32,000 bases of DNA, from assembly GCF_016908565.1 (NCBI RefSeq), contig NZ_JAFBED010000004.1, positions 307,798 through 339,797 on the forward strand. Reading direction: 5' to 3'. The stretch is from Sutcliffiella tianshenii. Its GTDB lineage: Bacteria; Bacillota; Bacilli; Bacillales; Bacillaceae_I. The translations under genes were made by a program, and so were the position numbers. Shown piece after piece: positions 18,153 to 32,000 of this stretch. The notes beneath the pieces were generated by a model, which had not been told where the DNA came from, did no database searches, and saw nothing but the letters and a program-made list of their open reading frames with translations. Every line of letters begins with the position of its first letter. The first letter of the stretch is position 1.

Positions 18153-19286
18153 TTACTGGTACAGAAAAGCGGTCGCTTCCAATAATTTCTGTTGTGCCCC
18201 CCACAATTCCGAGGAGTCTTTGGATGTTTGATATTGCTGAATGTGCTGATATGCACCAACAAGAAGGTCTTTCCACTGTTTAGGACCATCTGTCATTTCT
18301 TCCGCTTTGACTGCCGAGATCTTCTCAAAATGTCCGTTCATTTTTTCCACTGCACTGCTATCAAGTGTTCCTCCCTGGAGCAATGAGGAGGAGGTTGCAG
18401 CCAATTCCTTGTATAGACTTTGACCTTCTTGAAGAACTGCCGCATCCTGAGCATTCAAAGAATTGAACGTCCTTTCAGGGATCGCAAACTCCTTCGCATA
18501 GGTTTCCAGTCCTTTATCGCTTGCCATTGTACCGAGACTTTTCATTCCTTCTACCGTCTGTCCGATTCCCACCAATACATAAATGGTATCCTTGCCGACA
18601 GCAACAGCTGAAAATCCCTGGCTTTTGAACGAATCTATCGTCGCATTTGCAGCTTCCATACTCGATAATGCCCCACCCTGCAGGACAGCTACTCCTAGCG
18701 CAGGTATGGTGACACTCTGCCCGTCGCTGTTCCCAGCTGTTCCGGTATTTTCATTTTCCGCCTGGTCTGATACCGAGCCCGCAACAGGCTGGTTAGGATT
18801 CAATGGATTATCAGAAGAGATATTCATGATTGCGAGAATAATAAAGCCTAAACAAGTCCCAATGCCGACAGCCATCACAATGGATACAATAAGTTGTTTC
18901 GAAAAGGACGGAGGGGCCAATTTCTTCTTTTTTAATGAGTGGGGAAGCGATTTCTTCCCTTTTGGTTTATTGATTTGACGCAAATCTTCTATATAAGAAG
19001 TTTTTTCAGATGTTGTTTCCTTATTCTCCGGCTTCACCGGCTCTTTAGGAAGAACCCATTCGAAATCTTCTTCCTCTTTCTTTTCTGCTGCTGCAGCCGT
19101 CTCATCCACGATGATCAAGGGCAGGTCGTCCTCTTCGATTGGCGTTTCCCGCTCTGGATTTTGATAGTCTTCCATGGATGTCCCGTGACGATTTTTCCCT
19201 TTCTTTTTCTTTGAGTTTCGATGATATGATTTTTCCACCCCGTTAATGCGGATTTTCACTTCATGGGAATGATTCTTGTCCAACAT
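18153..19286 (-). CDS. spoIIB: SpoIIB-like SPOR-domain sporulation or septal peptidoglycan-binding protein
   Basis: ORF 18153..19298. ATG 19286 is preferred because a GGAGGTG SD lies upstream. It has a lysine-rich N-terminus, one TM segment (LIVSIVMAVGIGTCLGFIILAI) and a SPOR-like domain (GVAVLQGGALSSMEAANATIDSFKSQGFSAVAVGKDTIYVLVGIG). It occupies the spoIIB position next to maf. The assignment rests on synteny plus architecture. Confidence 0.6.
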   Translation of the reverse strand: MLDKNHSHEVKIRINGVEKSYHRNSKKKKGKNRHGTSMEDYQNPERETPIEEDDLPLIIVDETAAAAEKKEEEDFEWVLPKEPVKPENKETTSEKTSYIEDLRQINKPKGKKSLPHSLKKKKLAPPSFSKQLIVSIVMAVGIGTCLGFIILAIMNISSDNPLNPNQPVAGSVSDQAENENTGTAGNSDGQSVTIPALGVAVLQGGALSSMEAANATIDSFKSQGFSAVAVGKDTIYVLVGIGQTVEGMKSLGTMASDKGLETYAKEFAIPERTFNSLNAQDAAVLQEGQSLYKELAATSSSLLQGGTLDSSAVEKMNGHFEKISAVKAEEMTDGPKQWKDLLVGAYQHIQQYQTSKDSSELWGAQQKLLEATAFLYQ

Positions 19287-19352
19287 GTCCACCTCCATTT
19301 ACCTTGACAAAATATGTCTGCAATTGATTTGTTTCATCCTATCATAGCGCAT

Positions 19353-23196: not shown

Positions 23197-24405
23197 CTAT
23201 GACTGAATGTGGTTAAAAATATCGAACATTGGAACTAGTATGGATGTGACTATAGTCCCTACTATAACTGCGAGCACAACAATCATTAATGGCTCTATCA
23301 GACTCTTTAATCTGTCGGTTGCGTGGTCTACTTCTTTTTCATAGAATTCCGCTATTTTATCCAGCATCGAATCCAGTGATCCAGTGCTTTCCCCGATGGA
23401 GATCATTTGTGTTACAAGGGGCGGGAATGCCCAGTGCCCTTTCATTGGTCCAGTCATGCTTTCCCCTTTTTCCAGGGATAGCTTGCTGTCTGCAAGTACT
23501 TTTGCAATTACCTCATTTTCGACAATCTTCTCCACGATGCTTACCGCCTGCAGGATTGGGACTGAACTTGTGAACAATGAACTCAATGTCCTGGTAAACC
23601 TTGCAATGACTGCCTTTTGCAGCAATGGGCCAAAGATAGGCAATCGTAACACTAAGTAATCCAAATAGTACTTTGTTTCCTTCTTTGACTTTAATGCCAT
23701 CACTCCTACTACCAATGCCAGTATCATCAACAGGAACAGCCACCAGAATGATTGCATCCACTCACTTGCTCCAAGGACGAATCGGGTGATGAGTGGAAGC
23801 TGTGCGCCAAAGTCACTGAACATGGCGACAAAGGTAGGAACAACCCCAACAAGCAGGAAGATGACCACCCCAATGGCAATCACACCAAGCACCATCGGAT
23901 AGGTCAAGGCCGAAACGATTTTGGATCTTGTTTCACTTTGTTTCTCAAATTGCATGGCAAGCCTGTCAAGCGTGTCATCGAGTGCACCGCTTGCTTCCCC
24001 TGCCTTGATCATATTGATGAACATGGTGGAGAATACTTTCGGATGCTTTGCGGCAGCCGCTGAGAGCGCGTTACCCTGCTTCAACTCTTCCTCTACATCA
24101 AACAGCACCCTCTTCAAGGCCTTGCTTGATGTCTGGTTTGCCAGGACATTTGTCGCTTCCACAACAGAAATGCCTGCCCGTATGAGTGTAGAGAATTGGC
24201 GAAGGAATATAACAAAGTCCCTAAGCTTAACAGGATTTCCTATGCTGATATCCTTAGTGAAGATCGACTCCGGTATCTCCTCAATCCTGACTACGCGTAT
24301 TCCTTTTTCCTTCAATTGTACAATTGCCTCTCGACGGGATGCGCTGGTGATGGAGCCGTCCTTCTTCCCAGCTGTATCCCGGCCTGTATAAGTAAATCTT
24401 GGCAT
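23197..24405 (-). CDS. pilC: Type IV pilus platform protein PilC (GspF family)
   Basis: 402-aa ORF with duplicated GspF-type cytoplasmic domains (LSTLIRAGISVVEA ... and LSSLFTSSVPILQAV ...) and three TM segments. Confidence 0.9.
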   Translation of the reverse strand: MPRFTYTGRDTAGKKDGSITSASRREAIVQLKEKGIRVVRIEEIPESIFTKDISIGNPVKLRDFVIFLRQFSTLIRAGISVVEATNVLANQTSSKALKRVLFDVEEELKQGNALSAAAAKHPKVFSTMFINMIKAGEASGALDDTLDRLAMQFEKQSETRSKIVSALTYPMVLGVIAIGVVIFLLVGVVPTFVAMFSDFGAQLPLITRFVLGASEWMQSFWWLFLLMILALVVGVMALKSKKETKYYLDYLVLRLPIFGPLLQKAVIARFTRTLSSLFTSSVPILQAVSIVEKIVENEVIAKVLADSKLSLEKGESMTGPMKGHWAFPPLVTQMISIGESTGSLDSMLDKIAEFYEKEVDHATDRLKSLIEPLMIVVLAVIVGTIVTSILVPMFDIFNHIQS

Positions 24406-25446
24406 CTAATTCACCGTCTCCTGCAGGAAGCTCTCTGCTGATACTCTACTAATCTCACTATTCTGGATGAGCTGCCTGATGCTCATTTCCAAGGTGTGCA
24501 TACCTAAGGCCCTGCTTGTTTGCATCACGTTTTGAATCTGATGTATTTTCTCGTTTCGGATCAGGTTCGCAACCGCCGGGGTGTTGACCAAAATTTCGGT
24601 CGCCACTTTCCTTCCCTGTCTATCCAATGACGGGAAAAGCCTCTGAGAGATGATCGATACAAGGACAGAAGCTAGCTGGATCCGAATCTGCGCCTGCTGT
24701 GGTCCTGGAAATACGTCAATGATCCGGTCGATGGTTGATGGCGCACTTGTCGTATGCAAGGTACCCAAAACAAGATGACCGGTTTCTGCTGCAGTGATGG
24801 CAGTCTGGATGGTCTCGAGGTCACGAAGCTCCCCTACGAGGATAACATCCGGATCCTGCCTAAGGGATGCCCTCAGTCCGGTAGCAAAGCTTTTGGTATC
24901 GAATCCTACCTCACGCTGATCGATCATGCACTGATTATGGCGATGAAGATACTCAATCGGATCTTCCAAGGTAATGATATGCTTCTTCATCGTGCGATTC
25001 ATATAGTCGATCATGGAAGCAAGTGTAGTCGACTTCCCGCTCCCCGTTGGACCAGTAACAAGGATCAGCCCCTGCGGCTTATCTACAAGACTATTTAATA
25101 TAGACGGCAGCGAAAGCTCTTCAAGGGATGGAACCCTGCTCGGTATAATACGTATGGCAATCGCAACGGATGTTCTTTGGCGGTAGGCGTTCACACGGAA
25201 TCTTGATATCCCCGGGACACTGTAGGAAAAGTCCAGTTCCCCTTTTTCATCAAATGTCTGCCACATAAATTCAGGTATCATCTGTTTGGCAATCGTATGG
25301 GTGTCCTCAGGAGTGAGAATATCCTTCCCATAGCTCTTGAGCTCCCCGTTTATGCGGAAAACCGGCGGAACTCCTACAGATAGATGGATATCGGATGCTT
25401 TATATTCATAGGCTGCATGGAGCCAGTCATTCATTTTATCCAGCAT
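24406..25446 (-). CDS. pilT: Type IV pilus retraction ATPase PilT
   Basis: ORF track 24406..25458 (GTG). ATG 25446 is preferred because GGTGAG lies 7 nt upstream. It has ASDIHL, Walker A GPTGSGKST, Asp box, Walker B ILVGELRD, His box TLHT and AIRNLIRE-like VANLIRNEKIHQ, the PilT signature. Confidence 0.9.
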   Translation of the reverse strand: MLDKMNDWLHAAYEYKASDIHLSVGVPPVFRINGELKSYGKDILTPEDTHTIAKQMIPEFMWQTFDEKGELDFSYSVPGISRFRVNAYRQRTSVAIAIRIIPSRVPSLEELSLPSILNSLVDKPQGLILVTGPTGSGKSTTLASMIDYMNRTMKKHIITLEDPIEYLHRHNQCMIDQREVGFDTKSFATGLRASLRQDPDVILVGELRDLETIQTAITAAETGHLVLGTLHTTSAPSTIDRIIDVFPGPQQAQIRIQLASVLVSIISQRLFPSLDRQGRKVATEILVNTPAVANLIRNEKIHQIQNVMQTSRALGMHTLEMSIRQLIQNSEISRVSAESFLQETVN

Positions 25447-25458
25447 GCTTTTTCTCAC

Positions 25459-27126
25459 CTACTCTTGAAGGGCAACACGCAGAATCTCTTCGGTTGTGGT
25501 AAGCCCTTTTTTTACTTTTAACAAACCATCATCTATCAAGAAGACTGTATCCTGTTCATGTGCGTATTCCCTCAATCGGGAAATCGGCTCGTTGTTCATG
25601 ATCATCTTTTTCATCTGATCGTTGATGACAAGCAGTTCATGGATGGCGATACGACCTTTATAGCCTGTCATATTGCACGTGCCACAGCCTTTTCCTCGCA
25701 TCACCTTATCAATCTCAAGGCCGCGTTTAGCGAATATCTCTTTCTCTCTTAAGGTCGGTTCCTCCGGTTTAGCACAGTCCCGGCATACTTTCCTTACTAG
25801 ACGCTGTGCGAGCACACCATTAATGGAAGATCCTACAAGGAACGGCTCCACCTTCATATCTACAAGTCTAGTAATGGTACTGATTGCGTCATTGGTATGA
25901 AGTGTGCTCAGTACAAGGTGACCGGTCAATGATGCACGGATGGCAATCTCGGCAGTCTCCCGGTCACGGATTTCTCCTACCATGATGACATTCGGATCCT
26001 GACGTAGGATGGCACGAAGACCTTTGGCAAACGTCATCCCTACATTCGTGTTGACCTGGATCTGATTGATGCCTTCCAATTGATATTCCACAGGATCTTC
26101 AACCGTGATGATGTTTACTTCCTCACTGTTCAGATGGTTCAACGCCGCGTAAAGAGTGGATGATTTCCCTGAACCTGTAGGACCGGTTATGAGGATGATC
26201 CCGGTCGGCTTATGTATGAGATCGGTAAAGCGTTCATAGTTCTTTTCATTGAAACCAAGCTGCGTGATATCATTCAACGCACTGCTCATATCCAATATCC
26301 GCATAACGATTTTTTCGCCAAAAACGGTAGGAAGCGAGGAAACACGGACATCGACTGGATGGAAGTCAACGTTCGTCTTGATTCTTCCATCCTGTGGGAC
26401 ACGATGCTCGGTGATATCCATCTGCCCCAGGATCTTGATGCGTGCAATAAGAACATTTTGGGTATGTTTTGGCAAGACCCTTTCTGTCCGTAGTACGCCA
26501 TCTATACGATATCTAACAACAACTTTGGTTTCCTGTGGATCGATATGGATATCACTTGCCCGCTGCTGGACAGCGTTTTGCAATAGTTGATTTACCAATC
26601 TGACAATTGGTGAATCCTCTTCGGTAATCCGCTCATCCTCCACCTTGACCTGAACATTCGGTTCAAAGCCTTCTAGCAGCTCATCCATGGAATCGGCCGT
26701 TTCATAATATTTATTGATGGATCGTAGAATATCGTCTTTGGTGGAAATGACCGGTTCGATCTCAAAACCGGTGGACAGCCTCAGGTCATCCATGGCAAAG
26801 AAGTCCATAGGGTCTGCCATGGCAACGAACAACCGATCATGTTCTTTTTTCAGTGGAATTAAGATATTGCGTTTTGCAAACTCTTTGGACACGATATGCA
26901 TCAGCTTATCATCAAAAGGATAGCGGAATAAGCTTACATGCGGAATACCTAGCTGGAATTCCAACACTTCAATAAGTTGCTGTTCCGTGATGAATCCCTT
27001 TTGGAGCAGAACATCCCCAAGCTTCTGTTCACGTGTTTTCTCCTTCAGAGCACTTTTCAACTGACTTTCGGTAATAATGCCGGCTTCGACCAATAAGTCC
27101 CCAAGCCTCTTTCTTGTCTGCACCAT
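25459..27126 (-). CDS. pilB: Type IV pilus assembly ATPase PilB (GspE family) with an MshEN-like N-terminal domain
   Basis: ORF track 25459..27135 (GTG). ATG 27126 is preferred because AAGGTGA lies 5 nt upstream. It has Walker A GPTGSGKSS, Walker B IMVGEIRD and the tetracysteine motif CRDC...CGTC. The N-terminus has tandem RLGDLLVEAGII... / KLGDVLLQKGFI... motifs. Confidence 0.92.
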   Translation of the reverse strand: MVQTRKRLGDLLVEAGIITESQLKSALKEKTREQKLGDVLLQKGFITEQQLIEVLEFQLGIPHVSLFRYPFDDKLMHIVSKEFAKRNILIPLKKEHDRLFVAMADPMDFFAMDDLRLSTGFEIEPVISTKDDILRSINKYYETADSMDELLEGFEPNVQVKVEDERITEEDSPIVRLVNQLLQNAVQQRASDIHIDPQETKVVVRYRIDGVLRTERVLPKHTQNVLIARIKILGQMDITEHRVPQDGRIKTNVDFHPVDVRVSSLPTVFGEKIVMRILDMSSALNDITQLGFNEKNYERFTDLIHKPTGIILITGPTGSGKSSTLYAALNHLNSEEVNIITVEDPVEYQLEGINQIQVNTNVGMTFAKGLRAILRQDPNVIMVGEIRDRETAEIAIRASLTGHLVLSTLHTNDAISTITRLVDMKVEPFLVGSSINGVLAQRLVRKVCRDCAKPEEPTLREKEIFAKRGLEIDKVMRGKGCGTCNMTGYKGRIAIHELLVINDQMKKMIMNNEPISRLREYAHEQDTVFLIDDGLLKVKKGLTTTEEILRVALQE

Positions 27127-27146
27127 ATGATTCACCTTTTCATTTC

Positions 27147-28586
27147 TTATTTCCCAGTGTTATCCGTTCCAGAACCTGGCTCGTTGCCTGAATCGTTATC
27201 GTTATCATTATCGTTATTGTTGTTTGTATTTGTGTTACCGGAGTTGTTTTCTCCATTATTTGAGGTGTTTCCACCTGTGTTGTTAGAGTTTCCGGTATTT
27301 GTACCACCCGTGTTTGTGCCGCCAGTATTAGTACCACCTGAGTTTGAACCACCATTATTGCTGGAACCTGAATTACTGGTGTTCCCTGGAGTCGTTCCTG
27401 AATTTGTATCTGTATCAATATCAGGGTTCGTTGCAACTGTATTTCTGATAAGACTATGTTGTTCAATCCTGTGAATTGGTGGATAAAAGTCTTCACTATA
27501 CGATACCGTCTCCATTACCGCACCAGAGGCATCCTTAGCAACACGTTGAAGCTTAATAAACACCCCGTCCTTGCCTTCCTCTTTGACTTTCTTTTGATTA
27601 TTCAAAAGGGATGCCGAATATTGAACAATCGTTTTTGGAGTATAGGATTCTTTATTTTCCTCTTCAATGCTGTATACATAAGGCAATGCAGGACCGCTCA
27701 TCGTTCCAAGCACCGTAGAAGAATCGATGGAAAAAGTAACAATAAAGTCGCTATTATTTGGGTTCTCTATCACAAGGTCCATCTTGCCTCGTTCCATTTT
27801 TGCCTCATATCCAGCTACAGCCCATTCAGGCAGCTCTGTAGAGATATGCCTTTCCAATACTGCAAAGTTTGTAGAAGCCAAAAGTTGATAAATCATGGAA
27901 GCAACGACGCTTGAAGCTTCATCCGATAACATGATATTTTCCTTTAGTAGCCAATCATGCACAGAGAACGCTTGACCCGCAGGAACAGGAACTTCTTTAT
28001 TTGATAGACCTGCTTTTAGTTCATCTAAAACTTTTTTATCAGACACCTTAAGAATGGAATCAATCGAGGTTTTCTCGATCAAAGTATCATCCAAAAGATA
28101 ATCAGCAATGAAAAATGTTTGATTTCCCCCTTTAAGCATGGTCGCAACCTCTATCAAGTCATTTAAGAGTTTTTCAGAATCCAATGCAGCAAAAATATCA
28201 GGACTATTTGTTAAAGCTTCTATTTCGGCCAATAAAATACTGGATTCCAATTCTACATTTAAGGAATTGGTAGTGGAGTCCTGCGCATAATCAACGGATT
28301 CCGGTATATAGAAAATAAAATGGTTTTTATCAAAAGGTCTAAGTTCGCCGGACCATTCAAAAAAAATGGTTCCATCCGTAAGCCATGCATCTCTTGCGGC
28401 TTCCAACTTTTTCACAACTTCGTCTTTTGACTTGTTGCTTACCTCTTCATTGGCTATTAGCGTCTTCTCGGAAAACGCACTTTTATGAGGAAGCCAATTG
28501 TCTGTAATCATGGAACCGACAAAAGAAAAGGTAAATATAAAAGCTGTACAAACAAGCAATGCAAGCAATGTCTTTAAACTTTGCAT
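27147..28586 (-). CDS. Membrane-anchored extracytoplasmic VanW-family-like protein with an Asn/Thr/Gly/Ser-rich C-terminal tail
   Basis: 479-aa ORF with a GGGGGAG SD and an N-terminal signal-anchor (LLALLVCTAFIFTFSFVG). The central region aligns by eye with the VanW domain (FSVHDW ... VVASMIYQLLASTNFAVLERHISTELPEWAVAGYEAKMERGKMDLVIENPNNSDFIVTF). It is preceded by a PG_binding_4-like segment and followed by a G5-like beta segment (KKVKEEGKDGVFIKLQRVAKDASGAVMETV). It ends 20 nt before pilB. The CDS itself is secure; the family call is moderate. Confidence 0.6.
   Translation of the reverse strand: MQSLKTLLALLVCTAFIFTFSFVGSMITDNWLPHKSAFSEKTLIANEEVSNKSKDEVVKKLEAARDAWLTDGTIFFEWSGELRPFDKNHFIFYIPESVDYAQDSTTNSLNVELESSILLAEIEALTNSPDIFAALDSEKLLNDLIEVATMLKGGNQTFFIADYLLDDTLIEKTSIDSILKVSDKKVLDELKAGLSNKEVPVPAGQAFSVHDWLLKENIMLSDEASSVVASMIYQLLASTNFAVLERHISTELPEWAVAGYEAKMERGKMDLVIENPNNSDFIVTFSIDSSTVLGTMSGPALPYVYSIEEENKESYTPKTIVQYSASLLNNQKKVKEEGKDGVFIKLQRVAKDASGAVMETVSYSEDFYPPIHRIEQHSLIRNTVATNPDIDTDTNSGTTPGNTSNSGSSNNGGSNSGGTNTGGTNTGGTNTGNSNNTGGNTSNNGENNSGNTNTNNNNDNDNDNDSGNEPGSGTDNTGK
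27150..27443 (-). repeat. Low-complexity coding repeat encoding the 98-aa N/T/G/S/D tail of the VanW-like protein
   Basis: It encodes GGTNTGGTNTGGTNT, NNNNDNDNDND and similar runs. At DNA level there are imperfect 15-bp units (ggtatttgtaccacc / cgtgtttgtgccgcc / agtattagtaccacc) and (gttatc)n-like runs. The region is open in several frames, which generates spurious ORFs. Confidence 0.75.
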
Positions 28587-28614
28587 TTTTTCTCCCCCAT
28601 TTTATAAACTCCCA

Positions 28615-29010
28615 TCATTTTTTCTCTGTTATTTGATCGGAAAGTTCTTCTAATACCAGTTTTCTTCTATGTATATCCTTTTGTTCATAAGCATCTGAAT
28701 CTAGGAATGTAGTATTCTGTTTGTTGTCTCTTGCAGTTCTGGTAGTTTCTTCTTTAATTGAAGTATTCGCTAGGAATAGACGTTGTCTTTGAAGTAGTAA
28801 AGCAGTAAGAAGTAGAAGTAAAATCATAAATATAATGCTGTGCCATATTGTTAAAGTCTTCAGCACGAAAATACCCAAAGTGGAGATAAGAAATGATATT
28901 AGCGGGATGATCCATTTACCCTTAGAGGTGAATTTCATCCTGACAAGAAAAAATAATGGCAACAATAACGCTGTAGCCAAGACTGCAAAAACGTAATTCC
29001 CCAAAATCAC
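28615..29010 (-). CDS. Hypothetical small membrane protein (about three TM helices plus a charged C-terminus); possible first gene of the pilB operon
   Basis: 131-aa ORF from GTG 29010 with a weak SD. Hydrophobic segments are VFAVLATALLLPLFFLV, WIIPLISFLISTLGIFVL and IIFMILLLLLTALLL. It is on the same strand as the VanW-like gene and 28 nt upstream of it. I recognise no family. Confidence 0.45.
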   Translation of the reverse strand: MILGNYVFAVLATALLLPLFFLVRMKFTSKGKWIIPLISFLISTLGIFVLKTLTIWHSIIFMILLLLLTALLLQRQRLFLANTSIKEETTRTARDNKQNTTFLDSDAYEQKDIHRRKLVLEELSDQITEKK

Positions 29011-29106
29011 ACCACATTTCTTTATATTTTTACAAAATTTGTAGAACGAAGTAGACTATTGTTATTGTATAATAAACATAGGTATTTTGAAATAGGAGAT
29101 TACAAG

Positions 29107-29823
29107 ATGAAACAAATTATTGAAAAAAATGGTGGTTTCACATTAATTGAAGTTTTAGTATCCATAACAATTTTCTCAATCATCTTGCTTGGCATGATGA
29201 CCTTCTTTACCAATGGTCTAACCTATGTAAAGGAAAACGAATCTAAAACAGTAGCAACACAGGTGGCACGGAATGTCATGAATTATATGGAGAAGCAGGA
29301 TTTCGGAACGTTCGAGGCGTTTACTAATCAAAAAATGATGGATTTGGATCCTACGGTTAATTTTGATTCTCCTTTTTCAGTTACAATTAATCTCTCTTCA
29401 TGCGCTAAGGTGCATAACCTTATGATTAAGCCTTATCCAAATTCACTAGAATCTGACCGCTTGCAATACAACAACGTTAAACTCTTCTCCAATGAAATTC
29501 AGTGTAATTCGATTTTTAATCCAATAATCAATAATGTTACCTTAGGGAGCAGCAGTATAAATGTCTATGTCATGAAGTATTATGATCAACAACTTGAAGA
29601 AGAACTAAATGATAATCCCGAAATAATAAATTTACCTTCTTCAGTTAAGAAAGCGTATCTGAATCAAATCGATATTTTAACACTAAAAGATAGTCAGGAT
29701 AAATTAGACCCTGATAGTGATATAGCACAACATCTTTTGAGAATTTTTGTCGTGGTAGATTGGACAGATAATCGTGATGAAATCATGTTACAAGGAGTTA
29801 TCGCACATGAATCTATTCGCTAA
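29107..29823 (+). CDS. Minor pilin, prepilin-type N-terminal cleavage/methylation domain protein (PilV-like)
   Basis: ATG 29107 lies 8 nt after an AGGAG SD; the ORF-track TTG 29059 is unlikely. The class III signal is MKQIIEKNGG / FTLIEVLVSITIFSIILLG (Gly-1, Phe+1, Glu+5). Two Cys residues are present in the globular part. Confidence 0.8.
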   Translation: MKQIIEKNGGFTLIEVLVSITIFSIILLGMMTFFTNGLTYVKENESKTVATQVARNVMNYMEKQDFGTFEAFTNQKMMDLDPTVNFDSPFSVTINLSSCAKVHNLMIKPYPNSLESDRLQYNNVKLFSNEIQCNSIFNPIINNVTLGSSSINVYVMKYYDQQLEEELNDNPEIINLPSSVKKAYLNQIDILTLKDSQDKLDPDSDIAQHLLRIFVVVDWTDNRDEIMLQGVIAHESIR

Positions 29824-30457
29824 GGTATTTAGAGATGAACGTGGCGTTACACTCCTTGAATTACTTGCAGTTCTAGTAATCAGTAGCATCATATTAGGAA
29901 CCATGTATAGCTCTTTCATTATGGGAGTTAATTTGTACAAGAAAATAGGCATCGAAAGTCAATTACGCGATGAAGCTGATATTATTCTGGCAACCATGCT
30001 AAATGATTTGAATAGAATTCAACCAGAAGCGATACTTTATAATAGCGATGAGTCCTACATTGAATTATACAGTGTTAAGACGCTAATAAAGAATGACTAC
30101 TATTACAAGAATGAAGATCTTCTAGATATAATACAAAACAGTGCATCCATTCAATTTGTCTTAAAACCTAAAGCAAACGATAACACCAAATATGACCTTT
30201 ATAAAACCTATTTCGATCCCACAGTAAAACAAGTGAAAATTAATAGTGATTCAGTATATCTCATGCCAATTAATGAAGGTGGCAACATAATGAGTTATGA
30301 ATGTACGAATAAAAAAGTTTCACTATCTAATATTGAAAAGGTTTGTGATTCCGGTGTAATTACTACAAAGTTTAAACTGGGACATCTTGAATATTCAGAA
30401 ACTGATAATAAACTGTTCGTAGAACCATTGGAATTTATTAGTGAATTTGGTTATTAG
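29807..30457 (+). CDS. Minor pilin, prepilin-type N-terminal domain protein (PilW-like)
   Basis: ATG 29807 lies 9 nt after an AAGGAG SD and overlaps the upstream gene by 17 nt. The signal is MNLFAKVFRDERG / VTLLELLAVLVISSIILG (Gly-1, Val+1, Glu+5). A Cys pair is present near the C-terminus (YECTNKKVSLSNIEKVCDSG). Confidence 0.8.
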   Translation: MNLFAKVFRDERGVTLLELLAVLVISSIILGTMYSSFIMGVNLYKKIGIESQLRDEADIILATMLNDLNRIQPEAILYNSDESYIELYSVKTLIKNDYYYKNEDLLDIIQNSASIQFVLKPKANDNTKYDLYKTYFDPTVKQVKINSDSVYLMPINEGGNIMSYECTNKKVSLSNIEKVCDSGVITTKFKLGHLEYSETDNKLFVEPLEFISEFGY

Positions 30458-30469
30458 AGAGGTATTTAT

Positions 30470-32000
30470 ATGAACGAAAAAGGCTCTACGTTAATTTTAG
30501 TTCTCATCATTTCTACAGTATTTATGATATTAGGCTTGAGTATTCTTGCTGTCGCTTTAAATGGAAGCACCAGAACACAATTGAGAACCGAAACTATAGG
30601 AGAATTGTATGAAGGAAAAGAAGAAATCGAGTTACTTACGGCATCATTTAAAGAAGAAGTAGAGTATGCCAGTTCCAATTTATTAAGTATTTCATTGCCT
30701 AGTGAGTATAACAGCGCTTATATTCCTGAACTGAATAAATTAATTTCCAATACTATAGAAACATTTCCAGCTTTAAAATCAAAAGGGCTGACAATTAATG
30801 ATATCACCGATGAATATATCGATGAAGTGACAGACTTAGATAAAACATATACCCGGGTTTTCGAGATATCCATTCCTCTTGATACAGGTAAAAGAGTTAA
30901 TAAACGTCTCATAATAACACCAGCGCCAAGCTTTCTGGATTATGCTTTAGGCTCATATGGCTCTGGTCCTGACGATGGGAAACTATACCTGAATGGGTCA
31001 TCAAATATATTAGGCAGTATTATTGCAAATGATTTATCCGTAAGCAGTAAAGCGAAGCTACGTGATAAACTAACTGTTACAAGTAGTGCGGTTAAAAGAG
31101 AAGAAGACAGCCTATTTCCTGCAATTAAAGGAAATGGATTTGTACAAAATCAATTAACTTTAAAGCATTCTGGCTTTCCAAACATTCCAGGATCTACAAG
31201 TACAACAGACTTAAAGAGCTTACCAGATTTAAGTGAATATTTTTATCTCGGTGCAGCCCCTAGCTTTGAAAGGCTGAATGAGGAATTTATTGAAGTACAA
31301 TTCAATACTACTTTCCTGAATAAATTTAATGAGCTGACTTCTGCCTATGTAAGTCAAGGTATCGCTGATATTAGTAACATTCCTAAGGCAACTGACAACC
31401 TTATCAATGTTATCAATCTAGAGAATACGTACCTGCAAAATAATAATATACTGATGATTGAAAAGTGGTTAGCTGACAAGCCAAATACACGACTTACGCA
31501 TAATAACAACCTCTATATTAGATCACTAATAAAGAATCCTCACATTACTAATGGAGTCACTTTCTCTGAAGATATTATCGTTACTGGTGATTTAGAAATA
31601 TCTGCAGTTGATAGACCTATTACATCGGACGGCAATACAATTATTGTTGGTGGGGACCTGAATATTACAGCATTGTCAGGAAATGAAATAGAATTAAATA
31701 GTAATATTGTTGTCCTTGGCGATTTAGAAATTAATACTATTACTACACCTATTCACCATAGGGGGACAATAGTTGTCTATGGTGAAGTAAGAATTAATGG
31801 TTCAGATTCCATAGGACTAAGTGAAATGGAATTTGACCAAAACTCTATTTACTTTGACAGTACAATTTACAGTTTTAGAAAAAGTCACATCTCAAATGTC
31901 AACGTCAGAGGAAGAGATGGCAATCAATTGGTTCTGTTGGCTAATGAAGATATTATTATCACCAGGATAAACGACTTATTCGAGTTTAAGGAAAAGCAAT
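30470..32000 (+). CDS. Large PilX-N-like (GspK-type, no Glu5) minor pilin fused to a beta-helix-like repeat domain; partial, continues beyond the window
   Basis: ATG 30470 lies 7 nt after a GAGAGG SD. I translated the frame by hand and it stays open to nt 32000 (at least 510 codons), so it is absent from the closed-ORF track. The N-terminus is MNEKG / STLILVLIISTVFMILGLSILAVAL. The C-terminal part has ~22-aa repeats (IIVTGDLEISAVD..., IIVGGDLNITALS..., IVVLGDLEINTIT..., IVVYGEVRINGSD...). Confidence 0.75.
   Translation, partial: MNEKGSTLILVLIISTVFMILGLSILAVALNGSTRTQLRTETIGELYEGKEEIELLTASFKEEVEYASSNLLSISLPSEYNSAYIPELNKLISNTIETFPALKSKGLTINDITDEYIDEVTDLDKTYTRVFEISIPLDTGKRVNKRLIITPAPSFLDYALGSYGSGPDDGKLYLNGSSNILGSIIANDLSVSSKAKLRDKLTVTSSAVKREEDSLFPAIKGNGFVQNQLTLKHSGFPNIPGSTSTTDLKSLPDLSEYFYLGAAPSFERLNEEFIEVQFNTTFLNKFNELTSAYVSQGIADISNIPKATDNLINVINLENTYLQNNNILMIEKWLADKPNTRLTHNNNLYIRSLIKNPHITNGVTFSEDIIVTGDLEISAVDRPITSDGNTIIVGGDLNITALSGNEIELNSNIVVLGDLEINTITTPIHHRGTIVVYGEVRINGSDSIGLSEMEFDQNSIYFDSTIYSFRKSHISNVNVRGRDGNQLVLLANEDIIITRINDLFEFKEKQ

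What the first reader, a model, noticed from the sequence alone, without database searches (positions are those of the whole stretch)
27147..28586. VanW-family-like envelope protein apparently co-transcribed with pilB: a candidate cell-wall-crossing accessory of a Gram-positive T4P
Seen: a 479-aa signal-anchored ORF ends 20 nt before the pilB start, with no terminator between them. Its centre aligns by eye with the VanW domain (VVASMIYQLLASTNFAVLERHIS ... GKMDLVIENPNNSDFIV). The glycine/cysteine stretch I recall as conserved in VanW proteins (GGGxCQ before the xSSTLYNA helix) is replaced by DEASSV, so there is no Cys. A PG_binding_4-like segment lies upstream and a G5-like segment downstream, followed by a 98-aa N/T/G/S tail. 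Established: VanW is a domain of unknown function, often combined with peptidoglycan-binding and G5 modules. Monoderm T4P lack a secretin, and how the fibre crosses the thick wall is unresolved. Inference: this protein could organise or hold open a passage through the peptidoglycan, or anchor the machine to the wall. I am not aware of a described VanW-T4P link.
Basis: partly seen in the sequence, partly recalled or inferred. Interest (0 to 1): 0.7.

Follow-up and report, generated by a model that had tools for sequence, protein, structure and literature searches.

The report
Dead cell-wall enzyme in pilus operon
The gene just upstream of pilB encodes a membrane-anchored relative of VanW-type cell-wall cross-linking enzymes that has lost its catalytic residues, and because it always sits in the type IV pilus gene cluster of Bacillus relatives it is a concrete candidate for how these pili are tied to, or pass through, the thick Gram-positive wall.

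Summary
ORF 27147-28586 (-) encodes a 479-aa signal-anchored protein. It ends 20 nt before the pilB ATG, with no terminator between. The window matches Bacillus tianshenii.

The protein is a very divergent VanW + G5 protein with a 91-aa disordered tail. It is collinear with YoaR/Ldt4-type enzymes (profile-profile 99.2%, E 2e-19).

Here GGGxCQ is DEASSV (Cys to Ser226) and the His is Ser249. None of 164 family representatives has either residue.

The gene lies directly upstream of pilB in 78 of 80 species genomes. In the other two it is about 2.6 kb upstream; minor-pilin genes fill that gap in the one inspected. It is also directly upstream in 3 of 3 Bacillaceae-like metagenomic pilB loci. It is absent from about 76 distant pilB loci. 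No paper searched links VanW or G5 to type IV pili.

Best reading: a non-catalytic, wall-interacting accessory of the Bacillaceae pilus machine.

New here: 68-75% of members end in a C-terminal lysine. This recalls Lpp and OutB, which L,D-transpeptidases attach covalently to peptidoglycan.

Function remains inferred.

The parts
27147..28586 (-). ORF of the dead-VanW/G5 protein (479 aa plus stop)
   Evidence: 100% identical to B. tianshenii JOC95_002318.
28506..28574 (-). N-terminal signal anchor (aa 5-27). Only 5 cytoplasmic residues, so N-in/C-out.
   Evidence: Hydrophobic stretch KTLLALLVCTAFIFTFSFVGSMI read from the sequence. AF2 models a helix at aa 2-30.
27990..28481 (-). N-terminal ectodomain (aa 36-199). 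Collinear with the PG_binding_4 region of YoaR-like proteins but shortened.
   Evidence: pLDDT above 85. hhalign is collinear. No Pfam PG_binding_4 hit in 0 of 106 members.
27687..27989 (-). Degenerate VanW domain (aa 200-300)
27906..27923 (-). DEASSV (aa 222-227) in place of the catalytic GGGxCQ. Ser226 sits at the Cys position.
   Evidence: hhalign. Across the family the position is S115/N30/T8/G4 with 0 Cys.
27840..27842 (-). Ser249 at the position of the catalytic His (canonical N-H-S)
   Evidence: Across the family the position is S127/G34/T3 with 0 His.
27453..27677 (-). G5 domain (aa 304-378)
   Evidence: Pfam G5 in 91 of 106 relatives. Foldseek 4fzq E 8e-7, also SasG, Aap, IgA1 protease and RpfB G5 domains.
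27150..27422 (-). Disordered N/T/G/S tail (aa 389-479)
   Evidence: pLDDT 30-35. A 6-nt repeat lies at 27192-27221.
27150..27152 (-). C-terminal Lys479, the only Lys or Arg in the 91-aa tail
   Evidence: Terminal K in 111 of 163 representatives and 59 of 79 species genomes.
27127..27146 (-). 20-nt spacer to pilB. It contains most of the pilB ribosome-binding site AAAGGTG (27133-27139). No terminator.
25459..27126 (-). pilB (extension ATPase with MshEN domain), followed by pilT, pilC, pilin, pilD, pilM, pilN and pilO down to 19448
28615..29010 (-). 131-aa membrane protein, the first gene of the operon. It ends 28 nt before the dead-VanW gene and is a short homologue of longer membrane + acidic proteins at this position in other genera.
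29064..29091 (-). Promoter-like site upstream of the 131-aa gene (weak consensus match only)

Best explanation
The gene encodes a bitopic membrane protein: 5 cytoplasmic residues, one membrane helix and a large ectodomain. It descends from the YoaR/Ldt4-type L,D-transpeptidases (membrane helix, PG4, VanW, G5, disordered tail) but has lost catalysis. The GGGxC nucleophile loop, the catalytic His and a 13-residue loop near the active site are gone in every family member.

It has become a fixed, co-transcribed gene of the Bacillaceae type IV pilus operon, directly ahead of pilB.

Most likely it is a non-catalytic, wall-interacting accessory subunit.
- The remodelled VanW cleft and the G5 module hold on to peptidoglycan.
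- The long disordered tail threads into the wall meshwork.
- Together they tie the PilMNO/PilC platform in the membrane to the wall and position it under a usable gap, in a system with no secretin or outer membrane.

Shown: homology, loss of the Cys and His, domain order, strict synteny, lineage restriction.

Inferred: peptidoglycan binding, contact with the pilus platform, and any effect on piliation.
For: Homology and architecture:
- hhalign, family against canonical PG4-VanW: 99.2%, E 2.3e-19, 336 columns from the membrane helix to the G5 region.
- VanW hit in 106 of 106 and G5 in 91 of 106 relatives.
- G5 fold confirmed against the PDB.
- High-confidence AF2 model for aa 40-385, with a disordered tail.

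Loss of catalysis: 0 of 164 representatives carry the Cys and 0 of 164 carry the His. Flanking structural positions are kept (S208, R246, G259, D270, N275). The Cys is required for transpeptidation in Ldt4 and Ldt5 (PMC11348318).

Operon:
- 20-nt spacer containing the pilB ribosome-binding site, and no terminator.
- In Anoxybacillus the stop codon overlaps the pilB start.

Synteny:
- Directly upstream of pilB in 78 of 80 genomes spanning many Bacillaceae genera. In the other two it is about 2.6 kb upstream; in the one inspected (L057) minor-pilin genes fill the gap.
- Same arrangement at rank 150 of the representative search.
- Reverse test: 3 of 3 Bacillaceae-like pilB loci have it, and about 76 distant pilB loci do not.

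Evolutionary rate: 26-50% identity, like PilN and PilO, against 63-89% for PilB. This fits an extracytoplasmic structural partner.

Context:
- How monoderm T4P cross or anchor to peptidoglycan is an acknowledged open question (PMC6916266).
- C-terminal disordered regions of PBPs are proposed to target wall gaps (cited in PMC11348318).
Against: - There is no experimental datum on this family.
- Peptidoglycan binding by PG4 or G5 has not been demonstrated even for canonical members (PMC11348318).
- PG_binding_4 is not detectable by HMM here.
- The VanW cleft is heavily remodelled, so it may bind something other than stem peptides.
- Synteny shows functional linkage, not mechanism.
- I could not test whether every Bacillaceae pil operon carries the gene. 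Geobacillus, for example, was not among the loci returned.
Confidence: 0.55

Rival explanations
1. The protein is covalently tethered to peptidoglycan through its C-terminal lysine by a bona fide L,D-transpeptidase (YkuD- or VanW-type). Lpp and the T2SS scaffold OutB/GspB are attached this way in Gammaproteobacteria. That would make it a membrane-to-wall strut that anchors the pilus motor. This is a more specific version of the main explanation.
For: - Lys is the very last residue in 111 of 163 family representatives and 59 of 79 species genomes. Lys makes up only 4.8% of the tail body. A further 26 have a Lys within the last 6 residues.
- In the window protein K479 is the only Lys or Arg in 91 tail residues.
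- About 48 members share a D-L-W-G-K-P-N-E-x-P-K-COOH motif.
- Canonical PG4-VanW control: 25 of 121 end in K.
- OutB has the same layout: N-terminal membrane segment, folded domain, C-terminal extension ending in Lys. It is attached to DAP by LDTs (PMC12274547).
Against: - Covalent protein-to-peptidoglycan attachment by LDTs is so far described in Gram-negative bacteria, not in Bacillota.
- A C-terminal Lys is fairly common in exported proteins in general (over 20% in E. coli periplasmic proteins, PMC12274547).
- A quarter to a third of members lack a terminal Lys. Anoxybacillus keeps the motif Lys but adds about 8 residues after it.
- The control set is phylogenetically narrow.
- The motif could equally be a protein-binding linear motif.
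Confidence: 0.13
2. The domain keeps a residual or altered enzymatic activity, such as L,D-carboxypeptidase or endopeptidase using Ser226. It locally trims or un-crosslinks peptidoglycan to open a channel for the fibre.
For: - Cys-to-Ala mutants of Ldt4 and Ldt5 still produced some tripeptide, so carboxypeptidase activity survives loss of the Cys (PMC11348318).
- The Cys position is Ser in 70% of members.
- A wall hydrolase (LytF) promotes Com-pilus extrusion in S. sanguinis (PMC13192262).
Against: - The Ser is not conserved: Asn, Gly, Thr, Gln and Asp occur in 30% of members.
- The catalytic His is absent in all 164 representatives.
- The GGG oxyanion-type loop and a 13-residue neighbouring loop are lost.
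Confidence: 0.1
3. It is a protein-protein adaptor of the alignment subcomplex (for PilN, PilO, minor pilins, or the upstream PRC-barrel and membrane + acidic proteins). The old enzyme fold serves merely as a scaffold, with no peptidoglycan contact.
For: - The cleft is strongly remodelled.
- It evolves at the rate of PilN and PilO.
- It is flanked in most genera by two other conserved accessory genes.
Against: It retains the full wall-enzyme architecture, including G5 and a long disordered tail that could span the wall. These would be unnecessary for a membrane-proximal adaptor.
Confidence: 0.12
4. It is a general wall-homeostasis gene that merely shares a neighbourhood with the pil cluster, next to mreBCD/minCD and sporulation genes. 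It has no role in piliation.
For: - The region is a conserved cell-envelope neighbourhood: maf, radC, mreBCD, minCD, spoIVF-like genes.
- Databases name the protein only as a VanW family or G5 domain protein.
Against: - It lies directly upstream of pilB in 78 of 80 genomes and about 2.6 kb upstream in the other two, even where upstream gene order changes.
- Stop and start codons overlap in Anoxybacillus.
- It is absent from distant pilB loci and present only with this operon type.
- Loss of catalysis argues against a housekeeping enzyme.
Confidence: 0.07

Closest known systems
C. difficile Ldt4 (CDR20291_1285) and B. subtilis YoaR-type VanW L,D-transpeptidases (Pfam PF04294; PMC11348318)
   Same: Same domain order: N-terminal membrane helix, N-terminal ectodomain, VanW, G5, C-terminal disordered region. 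Homology is supported at 99.2% by profile-profile comparison. Shared structural positions: F-S, E-R, G-x-[DE]-A, D...N.
   Different: The catalytic Cys (here Ser226) and His (here Ser249) are absent family-wide. The GGG loop and a 13-residue loop are lost. The Pfam score is 20-36 bits against 128-164 for canonical members. PG_binding_4 is not detectable. The gene is fixed in a pilus operon, which canonical members are not reported to be.
OutB/GspB of the Dickeya T2SS, and Braun lipoprotein Lpp (PMC12274547)
   Same: OutB is an inner-membrane-anchored accessory of a type IV filament-class machine that connects it to peptidoglycan. It has a C-terminal extension ending in Lys.
   Different: There is no sequence or fold relationship. 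OutB scaffolds a secretin, and none exists here. Covalent attachment is proven for OutB and only hypothesised here.
Peptidoglycan-binding accessories of diderm T4P/T2SS (PilQ AMIN domains, TsaP and FimV LysM, GspA/ExeA). From my own knowledge; PMC12274547 lists AMIN, LysM, SPOR and OmpA-like modules.
   Same: The proposed role is the same: non-catalytic tethering of a trans-envelope filament machine to the wall.
   Different: The folds are different, the organisms are diderm, and those proteins act together with a secretin.
Extended PilO of Streptococcus sanguinis, and LytF (PMC6916266, PMC13192262)
   Same: These are the other candidates proposed for helping monoderm type IV filaments cross or anchor to thick peptidoglycan.
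   Different: The PilO extension is a different protein and its role is speculative. LytF is an active CHAP hydrolase outside the pil operon. The present protein is a dead transpeptidase homologue inside the operon.

Membership tests
VanW family (PF04294) L,D-transpeptidases | Significant match to the VanW profile / homology to the VanW domain | tested here: met
   This protein is below the Pfam gathering score (20 against 27 bits). Orthologues reach 29-36 bits, and 106 of 106 relatives hit at E<=0.01. hhalign gives 96.3% and 99.2%. Only the C-terminal half of the HMM (positions 45/61-129) ever matches.
VanW family (PF04294) L,D-transpeptidases | Catalytic cysteine in the GGGxCQ motif (required for transpeptidation, PMC11348318) | tested here: not met
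   The position aligns to Ser226 within DEASSV. 0 of 164 family representatives have Cys there.
VanW family (PF04294) L,D-transpeptidases | Catalytic histidine (invariant N-H-S after the E-R motif) | tested here: not met
   The position aligns to Ser249. Across the family it is S127/G34/T3. His247, two residues earlier, is present in only 92 of 164.
VanW family (PF04294) L,D-transpeptidases | Catalytic aspartate | tested here: inconclusive
   The paper text available to me does not give the residue. The two conserved canonical Asp positions align to Glu261 (E in 157 of 164) and Asp270 (D in 158 of 164).
VanW family (PF04294) L,D-transpeptidases | L,D-transpeptidase activity | not testable with these tools
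   Needs a TetraRh or muropeptide assay.
G5 domain (PF07501) | Profile match and G5 fold | tested here: met
   This protein scores E 0.004, 17.8 bits against a gathering score of 23. 91 of 106 relatives hit, best E 4e-12. The AF2 model matches the solved G5 domains 4fzq, 3tiq, 6oh1 and 5e27 at E 8e-7 to 1e-4.
PG_binding_4 (PF12229) | Profile match | tested here: not met
   0 of 106 members hit at E<=0.01. The canonical control L083 hits at 1.9e-12.
PG_binding_4 (PF12229) | Homologous position and fold | tested here: inconclusive
   The hhalign alignment runs collinearly through the PG4 region of YoaR-like proteins, but with many gaps. The structure libraries that might show the fold were unavailable.
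Type IV pilus machinery (accessory component) | Encoded in, and co-oriented with, the pil operon | tested here: met
Type IV pilus machinery (accessory component) | Conserved co-occurrence with pil genes across taxa | tested here: met
   All 80 species genomes carry it upstream of pilB, 78 of them directly. 3 of 3 Bacillaceae-like metagenomic loci have it and about 76 distant pilB loci do not. A Pontibacillus-type locus shows the same arrangement.
Type IV pilus machinery (accessory component) | Required for pilus assembly or function | not testable with these tools
   Needs genetics.
Lpp/OutB-type peptidoglycan-tethered proteins | C-terminal lysine on a flexible extension in the wall compartment | tested here: met
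   K479 is terminal and is the only Lys or Arg in the tail. 68% of representatives and 75% of species genomes end in Lys.
Lpp/OutB-type peptidoglycan-tethered proteins | Covalent Lys-to-DAP bond made by an LDT | not testable with these tools
   Needs sacculus MS. The LDT repertoire of the genome is outside the window.

The most novel reading that the evidence does not exclude
Bacillaceae type IV pili carry a dedicated wall strut. It is a dead L,D-transpeptidase paralogue that has switched from enzyme to substrate. Its long disordered tail threads through the wall, and its conserved C-terminal lysine (motif LWGKPNExPK-COOH) is covalently cross-linked to meso-DAP by an active LDT. This fixes the secretin-less pilus motor to the sacculus. 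It would be the first LDT-mediated protein-to-peptidoglycan attachment in a monoderm, and a mechanical answer to how monoderm T4P resist retraction forces.
Probability: 0.12. Interest if true: 0.85.

Novelty: new variant of a known kind. Interest (0 to 1): 0.62.

Why it matters
How type IV pili cross and brace against the thick peptidoglycan of monoderm bacteria, without a secretin, is an explicitly stated open question (PMC6916266). So far only speculative candidates exist: the PilO extension, and LytF for Com pili.

This gene gives Bacillaceae a specific, operon-encoded, universally syntenic candidate with a wall-enzyme ancestry.

It also provides a clear natural example of a catalytically dead VanW domain. 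That family received an enzymatic function only in 2024, and its "non-LDT homologues" are flagged as unexplained (PMC12729407).

The conserved terminal lysine suggests a directly testable covalent-anchoring hypothesis.

Tried and rejected
- The PDB holds no VanW relative by sequence or by Foldseek. Only the G5 domain matched.
- A word-indexed homologue search with the 106-sequence profile returned almost nothing new, probably because the low-complexity tail dominated candidate selection.
- The PG_binding_4 call could not be confirmed by HMM.
- Papers matching "VanW" together with T4P terms were either an author named VanWagoner or unrelated vanW resistance genes.
- I considered that the small ORFs 27127..27474 (+) and 27140..27496 (-) might be real. 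They are frame artefacts of the low-complexity tail region.
- I considered a cleaved signal peptide instead of a signal anchor. This cannot be decided with these tools, and the AF2 model shows one long helix at aa 2-30.
- I considered Ser226 as a replacement nucleophile. I rejected it as the main reading because the position varies and the His is missing.
Full report
**What is there**

The window matches Bacillus tianshenii. The ORF product is 100% identical to JOC95_002318, which is annotated only as "hypothetical" or "G5 domain-containing".

ORF 27147..28586 (-) encodes 479 aa. On the same strand it is preceded by a 131-aa membrane protein (28615..29010, 28-nt gap). It is followed by:
- pilB, pilT, pilC, a pilin gene, pilD, pilM, pilN and a PilO-like gene;
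- a 381-aa unknown;
- maf, radC, mreBCD and minCD.

Minor-pilin genes lie divergently upstream.

The ORF's Lys479 codon and TAA stop (27152-27147) are followed by AAAGGTG and, 6 nt later, ATG 27126. The GTG at 27135 given by the ORF lister lies inside the ribosome-binding site. No terminator-like site on the minus strand separates the genes.

**Domain identity**

On this protein alone Pfam gives only sub-threshold hits:
- VanW: E 5e-4, 20 bits against a gathering score of 27, aa 228-294 = HMM positions 61-127 of 130.
- G5: E 0.004.

The call becomes solid through relatives:
- Orthologues pass the VanW threshold at 29-36 bits, and one passes G5.
- All 106 scanned family members hit VanW, and 91 hit G5.
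- A profile of the family aligns to canonical PG4-VanW (YoaR-like) proteins with 99.2% probability, E 2.3e-19, over 336 columns from the membrane helix to the G5 region. A first comparison with four canonical sequences gave 96.3%.

An AlphaFold2 model is confident (pLDDT mostly above 90) for aa 40-385 and disordered for aa 389-479. Foldseek against the PDB recovers solved G5 domains (HP0197-G5 at 8e-7, plus SasG, Aap, IgA1 protease and RpfB) and nothing for the VanW part. No VanW relative is found in the PDB by sequence either.

PG_binding_4 is not detected in any of 106 members, although it is detected in a canonical control. The N-terminal ectodomain is collinear with that region but shortened.

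VanW is no longer a domain of unknown function. Bollinger et al. 2024 (PMC11348318) showed several things:
- VanW domains are L,D-transpeptidase catalytic domains with a Cys-His-Asp triad.
- Ldt4(C286A) and Ldt5(C298A) cannot cross-link.
- C. difficile Ldt4 has the architecture membrane helix, PG4, VanW, G5, disordered region.

That is the same order as the protein here.

In the profile alignments the canonical G-G-G-V-C-Q aligns residue for residue with D222-E223-A224-S225-S226-V227. The invariant N-H-S histidine aligns with Ser249. A 13-residue conserved loop (HGYKxAPVIxxG) is deleted.

Across 164 representatives of the family (clusters at 50% identity or less), one search gives:

| Position (canonical role) | Residues in the family |
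|---|---|
| Cys | S115 / N30 / T8 / G4 and others; no Cys |
| His | S127 / G34 / T3; no His |
| S208 | kept in 164 |
| R246 | kept in 155 |
| G259 | kept in 164 |
| D270 | kept in 158 |
| N275 | kept in 164 |

The family is therefore an old, stably maintained, catalytically dead branch of VanW.

**Is the pilB adjacency more than chance?**

A scan of one genome per species found 125 relatives. The 80 best loci span Sutcliffiella, Cytobacillus, Anoxybacillus, Mesobacillus, Peribacillus, Robertmurraya, Rossellomorea, Bhargavaea and others.
- In 78 of 80 loci the gene is directly upstream of pilB on the same strand, followed by pilT-pilC-pilin-pilD-pilM-pilN-pilO.
- In the other two (L057, L077) pilB lies about 2.6 kb downstream. 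In L057, the one I inspected, minor-pilin genes fill the gap.
- In Anoxybacillus the stop overlaps the pilB start.
- A representative ranked 150th in an exhaustive HMM search has the same context. That search found 439 representatives at E<=1e-30, and the top 150 were all full length.

Reverse test: I retrieved 80 metagenomic pilB loci with the window's PilB. Only the three Bacillaceae-like loci that include upstream DNA (PilB 63-90% identical) carry the gene, each directly upstream of pilB. None of about 76 distant pilB loci carries this family or a canonical VanW ORF in its flanks.

The protein diverges as fast as PilN and PilO (26-50% identity) while PilB stays at 63-89%.

In most genera two further genes precede it: a longer membrane + acidic protein, and a PRC-barrel protein. 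The window keeps only a 131-aa remnant of the first.

The tails are hypervariable in length and composition, yet the last residue is Lys in 111 of 163 representatives and in 59 of 79 species genomes. Another 26 have a Lys within the last six residues. Lys is only 4.8% of the tail body.

Many members end in D-L-W-G-K-P-N-E-x-P-K. The window's clade ends in P-G-S-G-x-x-x-x-G-K, and K479 is the only Lys or Arg in its 91-residue tail. A phylogenetically narrow control of canonical PG4-VanW proteins ends in Lys in 25 of 121.

This recalls Lpp and the T2SS scaffold OutB. OutB has an N-terminal membrane anchor, a folded domain and a C-terminal extension ending in Lys. Its terminal Lys is covalently attached to DAP by L,D-transpeptidases (PMC12274547).

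**How it most likely works**

Shown:
- It is an extracytoplasmic, membrane-anchored, non-catalytic descendant of a wall cross-linking enzyme.
- It is encoded as a fixed gene of the Bacillaceae pil operon.

Inferred:
- It interacts with peptidoglycan through the remodelled VanW cleft, the G5 module and the disordered tail.
- It thereby anchors or positions the secretin-less pilus platform relative to the wall, possibly at wall gaps. C-terminal disordered regions of PBPs are proposed to target such gaps (cited in PMC11348318).

I give this general reading about 0.55.

Rivals:
- covalent tethering via the terminal Lys, a sharper version of the main reading (about 0.13);
- residual carboxypeptidase or endopeptidase activity that opens the mesh (about 0.10);
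- a pure protein-protein adaptor (about 0.12);
- a hitch-hiking wall gene with no pilus role (about 0.07).

**Novelty**

Databases already label relatives "VanW family protein" or "G5 domain-containing protein", so the domain call is not new.

I found no paper linking VanW or G5 to type IV pili.
- The 2011 survey of Gram-positive T4P operons (read) did not appear among the listed results of the VanW + type IV pili search, so it probably does not discuss VanW.
- The 2025 LDT review notes that VanW proteins without transpeptidase activity have unknown roles.
- Pelicic 2019 lists wall crossing as an open problem, with only PilO as a speculative candidate.

I rate this a new variant of a known kind: a dead VanW paralogue recruited to a pilus operon. 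Interest is moderate to high because it makes an open question testable. All functional claims remain inferential.

Noticed in passing
window 27150-27152 (K479); family-wide in P0002-P0168 and L001-L080: The hypervariable disordered tails end in Lys in 68-75% of family members. Many share a C-terminal D-L-W-G-K-P-N-E-x-P-K motif. In Anoxybacillus the motif Lys is followed by about 8 extra residues (...EQIKGNEDETS).
   Followed up: partly
window 28615-29010 (-); L017 5970-7229 and 7217-7972; L085 5424-7977: The 131-aa membrane protein ahead of the dead-VanW gene is a short homologue of 331-606-aa membrane + acidic proteins at the same position in other genera. Most genera also have a PRC-barrel protein between it and the VanW-like gene, and this is missing in the window. 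Both look like further lineage-specific pil-cluster accessories with no known function.
   Followed up: partly
window 25459-27135 (-): The longest-ORF start of pilB (GTG 27135) lies inside its own ribosome-binding site. ATG 27126 is the likely start. PilB carries an MshEN domain (Pfam 4.6e-22). GGDEF genes flank the pil cluster in L057 and L085. This hints at c-di-GMP control of this pilus.
   Followed up: partly
window 18153-19298 (-): A 381-aa ORF lies between the PilO-like gene and maf and has no Pfam or NCBIfam hit. From memory, B. subtilis has comC and spoIIB at the corresponding position next to maf-radC-mreBCD-minCD. If so, the lone comC of B. subtilis may be a remnant of such a pil operon.
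   Followed up: no
window 24000-31000: GC content falls from 0.44-0.50 over pilC, pilT and pilB to 0.35-0.41 in the dead-VanW gene and 0.30-0.36 in the 131-aa gene and the divergent minor-pilin genes. The drop parallels their much faster protein divergence.
   Followed up: no
L057 9284-11632; L077: In Bacillus salitolerans (L057) and B. suaedaesalsae (L077) about 2.6 kb separates the VanW-like gene from pilB. In L057, the one inspected, the gap holds minor-pilin genes and a 447-aa gene on the opposite strand.
   Followed up: partly
window 27127-27474 (+), 27140-27496 (-), 27192-27221: Two ORFs of over 110 aa overlap the tail-coding region in other frames. They are artefacts of its low-complexity composition. 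A 6-nt repeat (ATCGTT x5) encodes the NDNDND stretch, which suggests the tail evolves by slippage.
   Followed up: no
window 29059-30457 (+) and L017 3132-4985: The divergent minor-pilin genes (N_methyl motif) overlap each other. In other genera a roughly 617-aa protein with no family hit follows them, possibly a tip adhesin. The window may hold its start beyond 30466.
   Followed up: no
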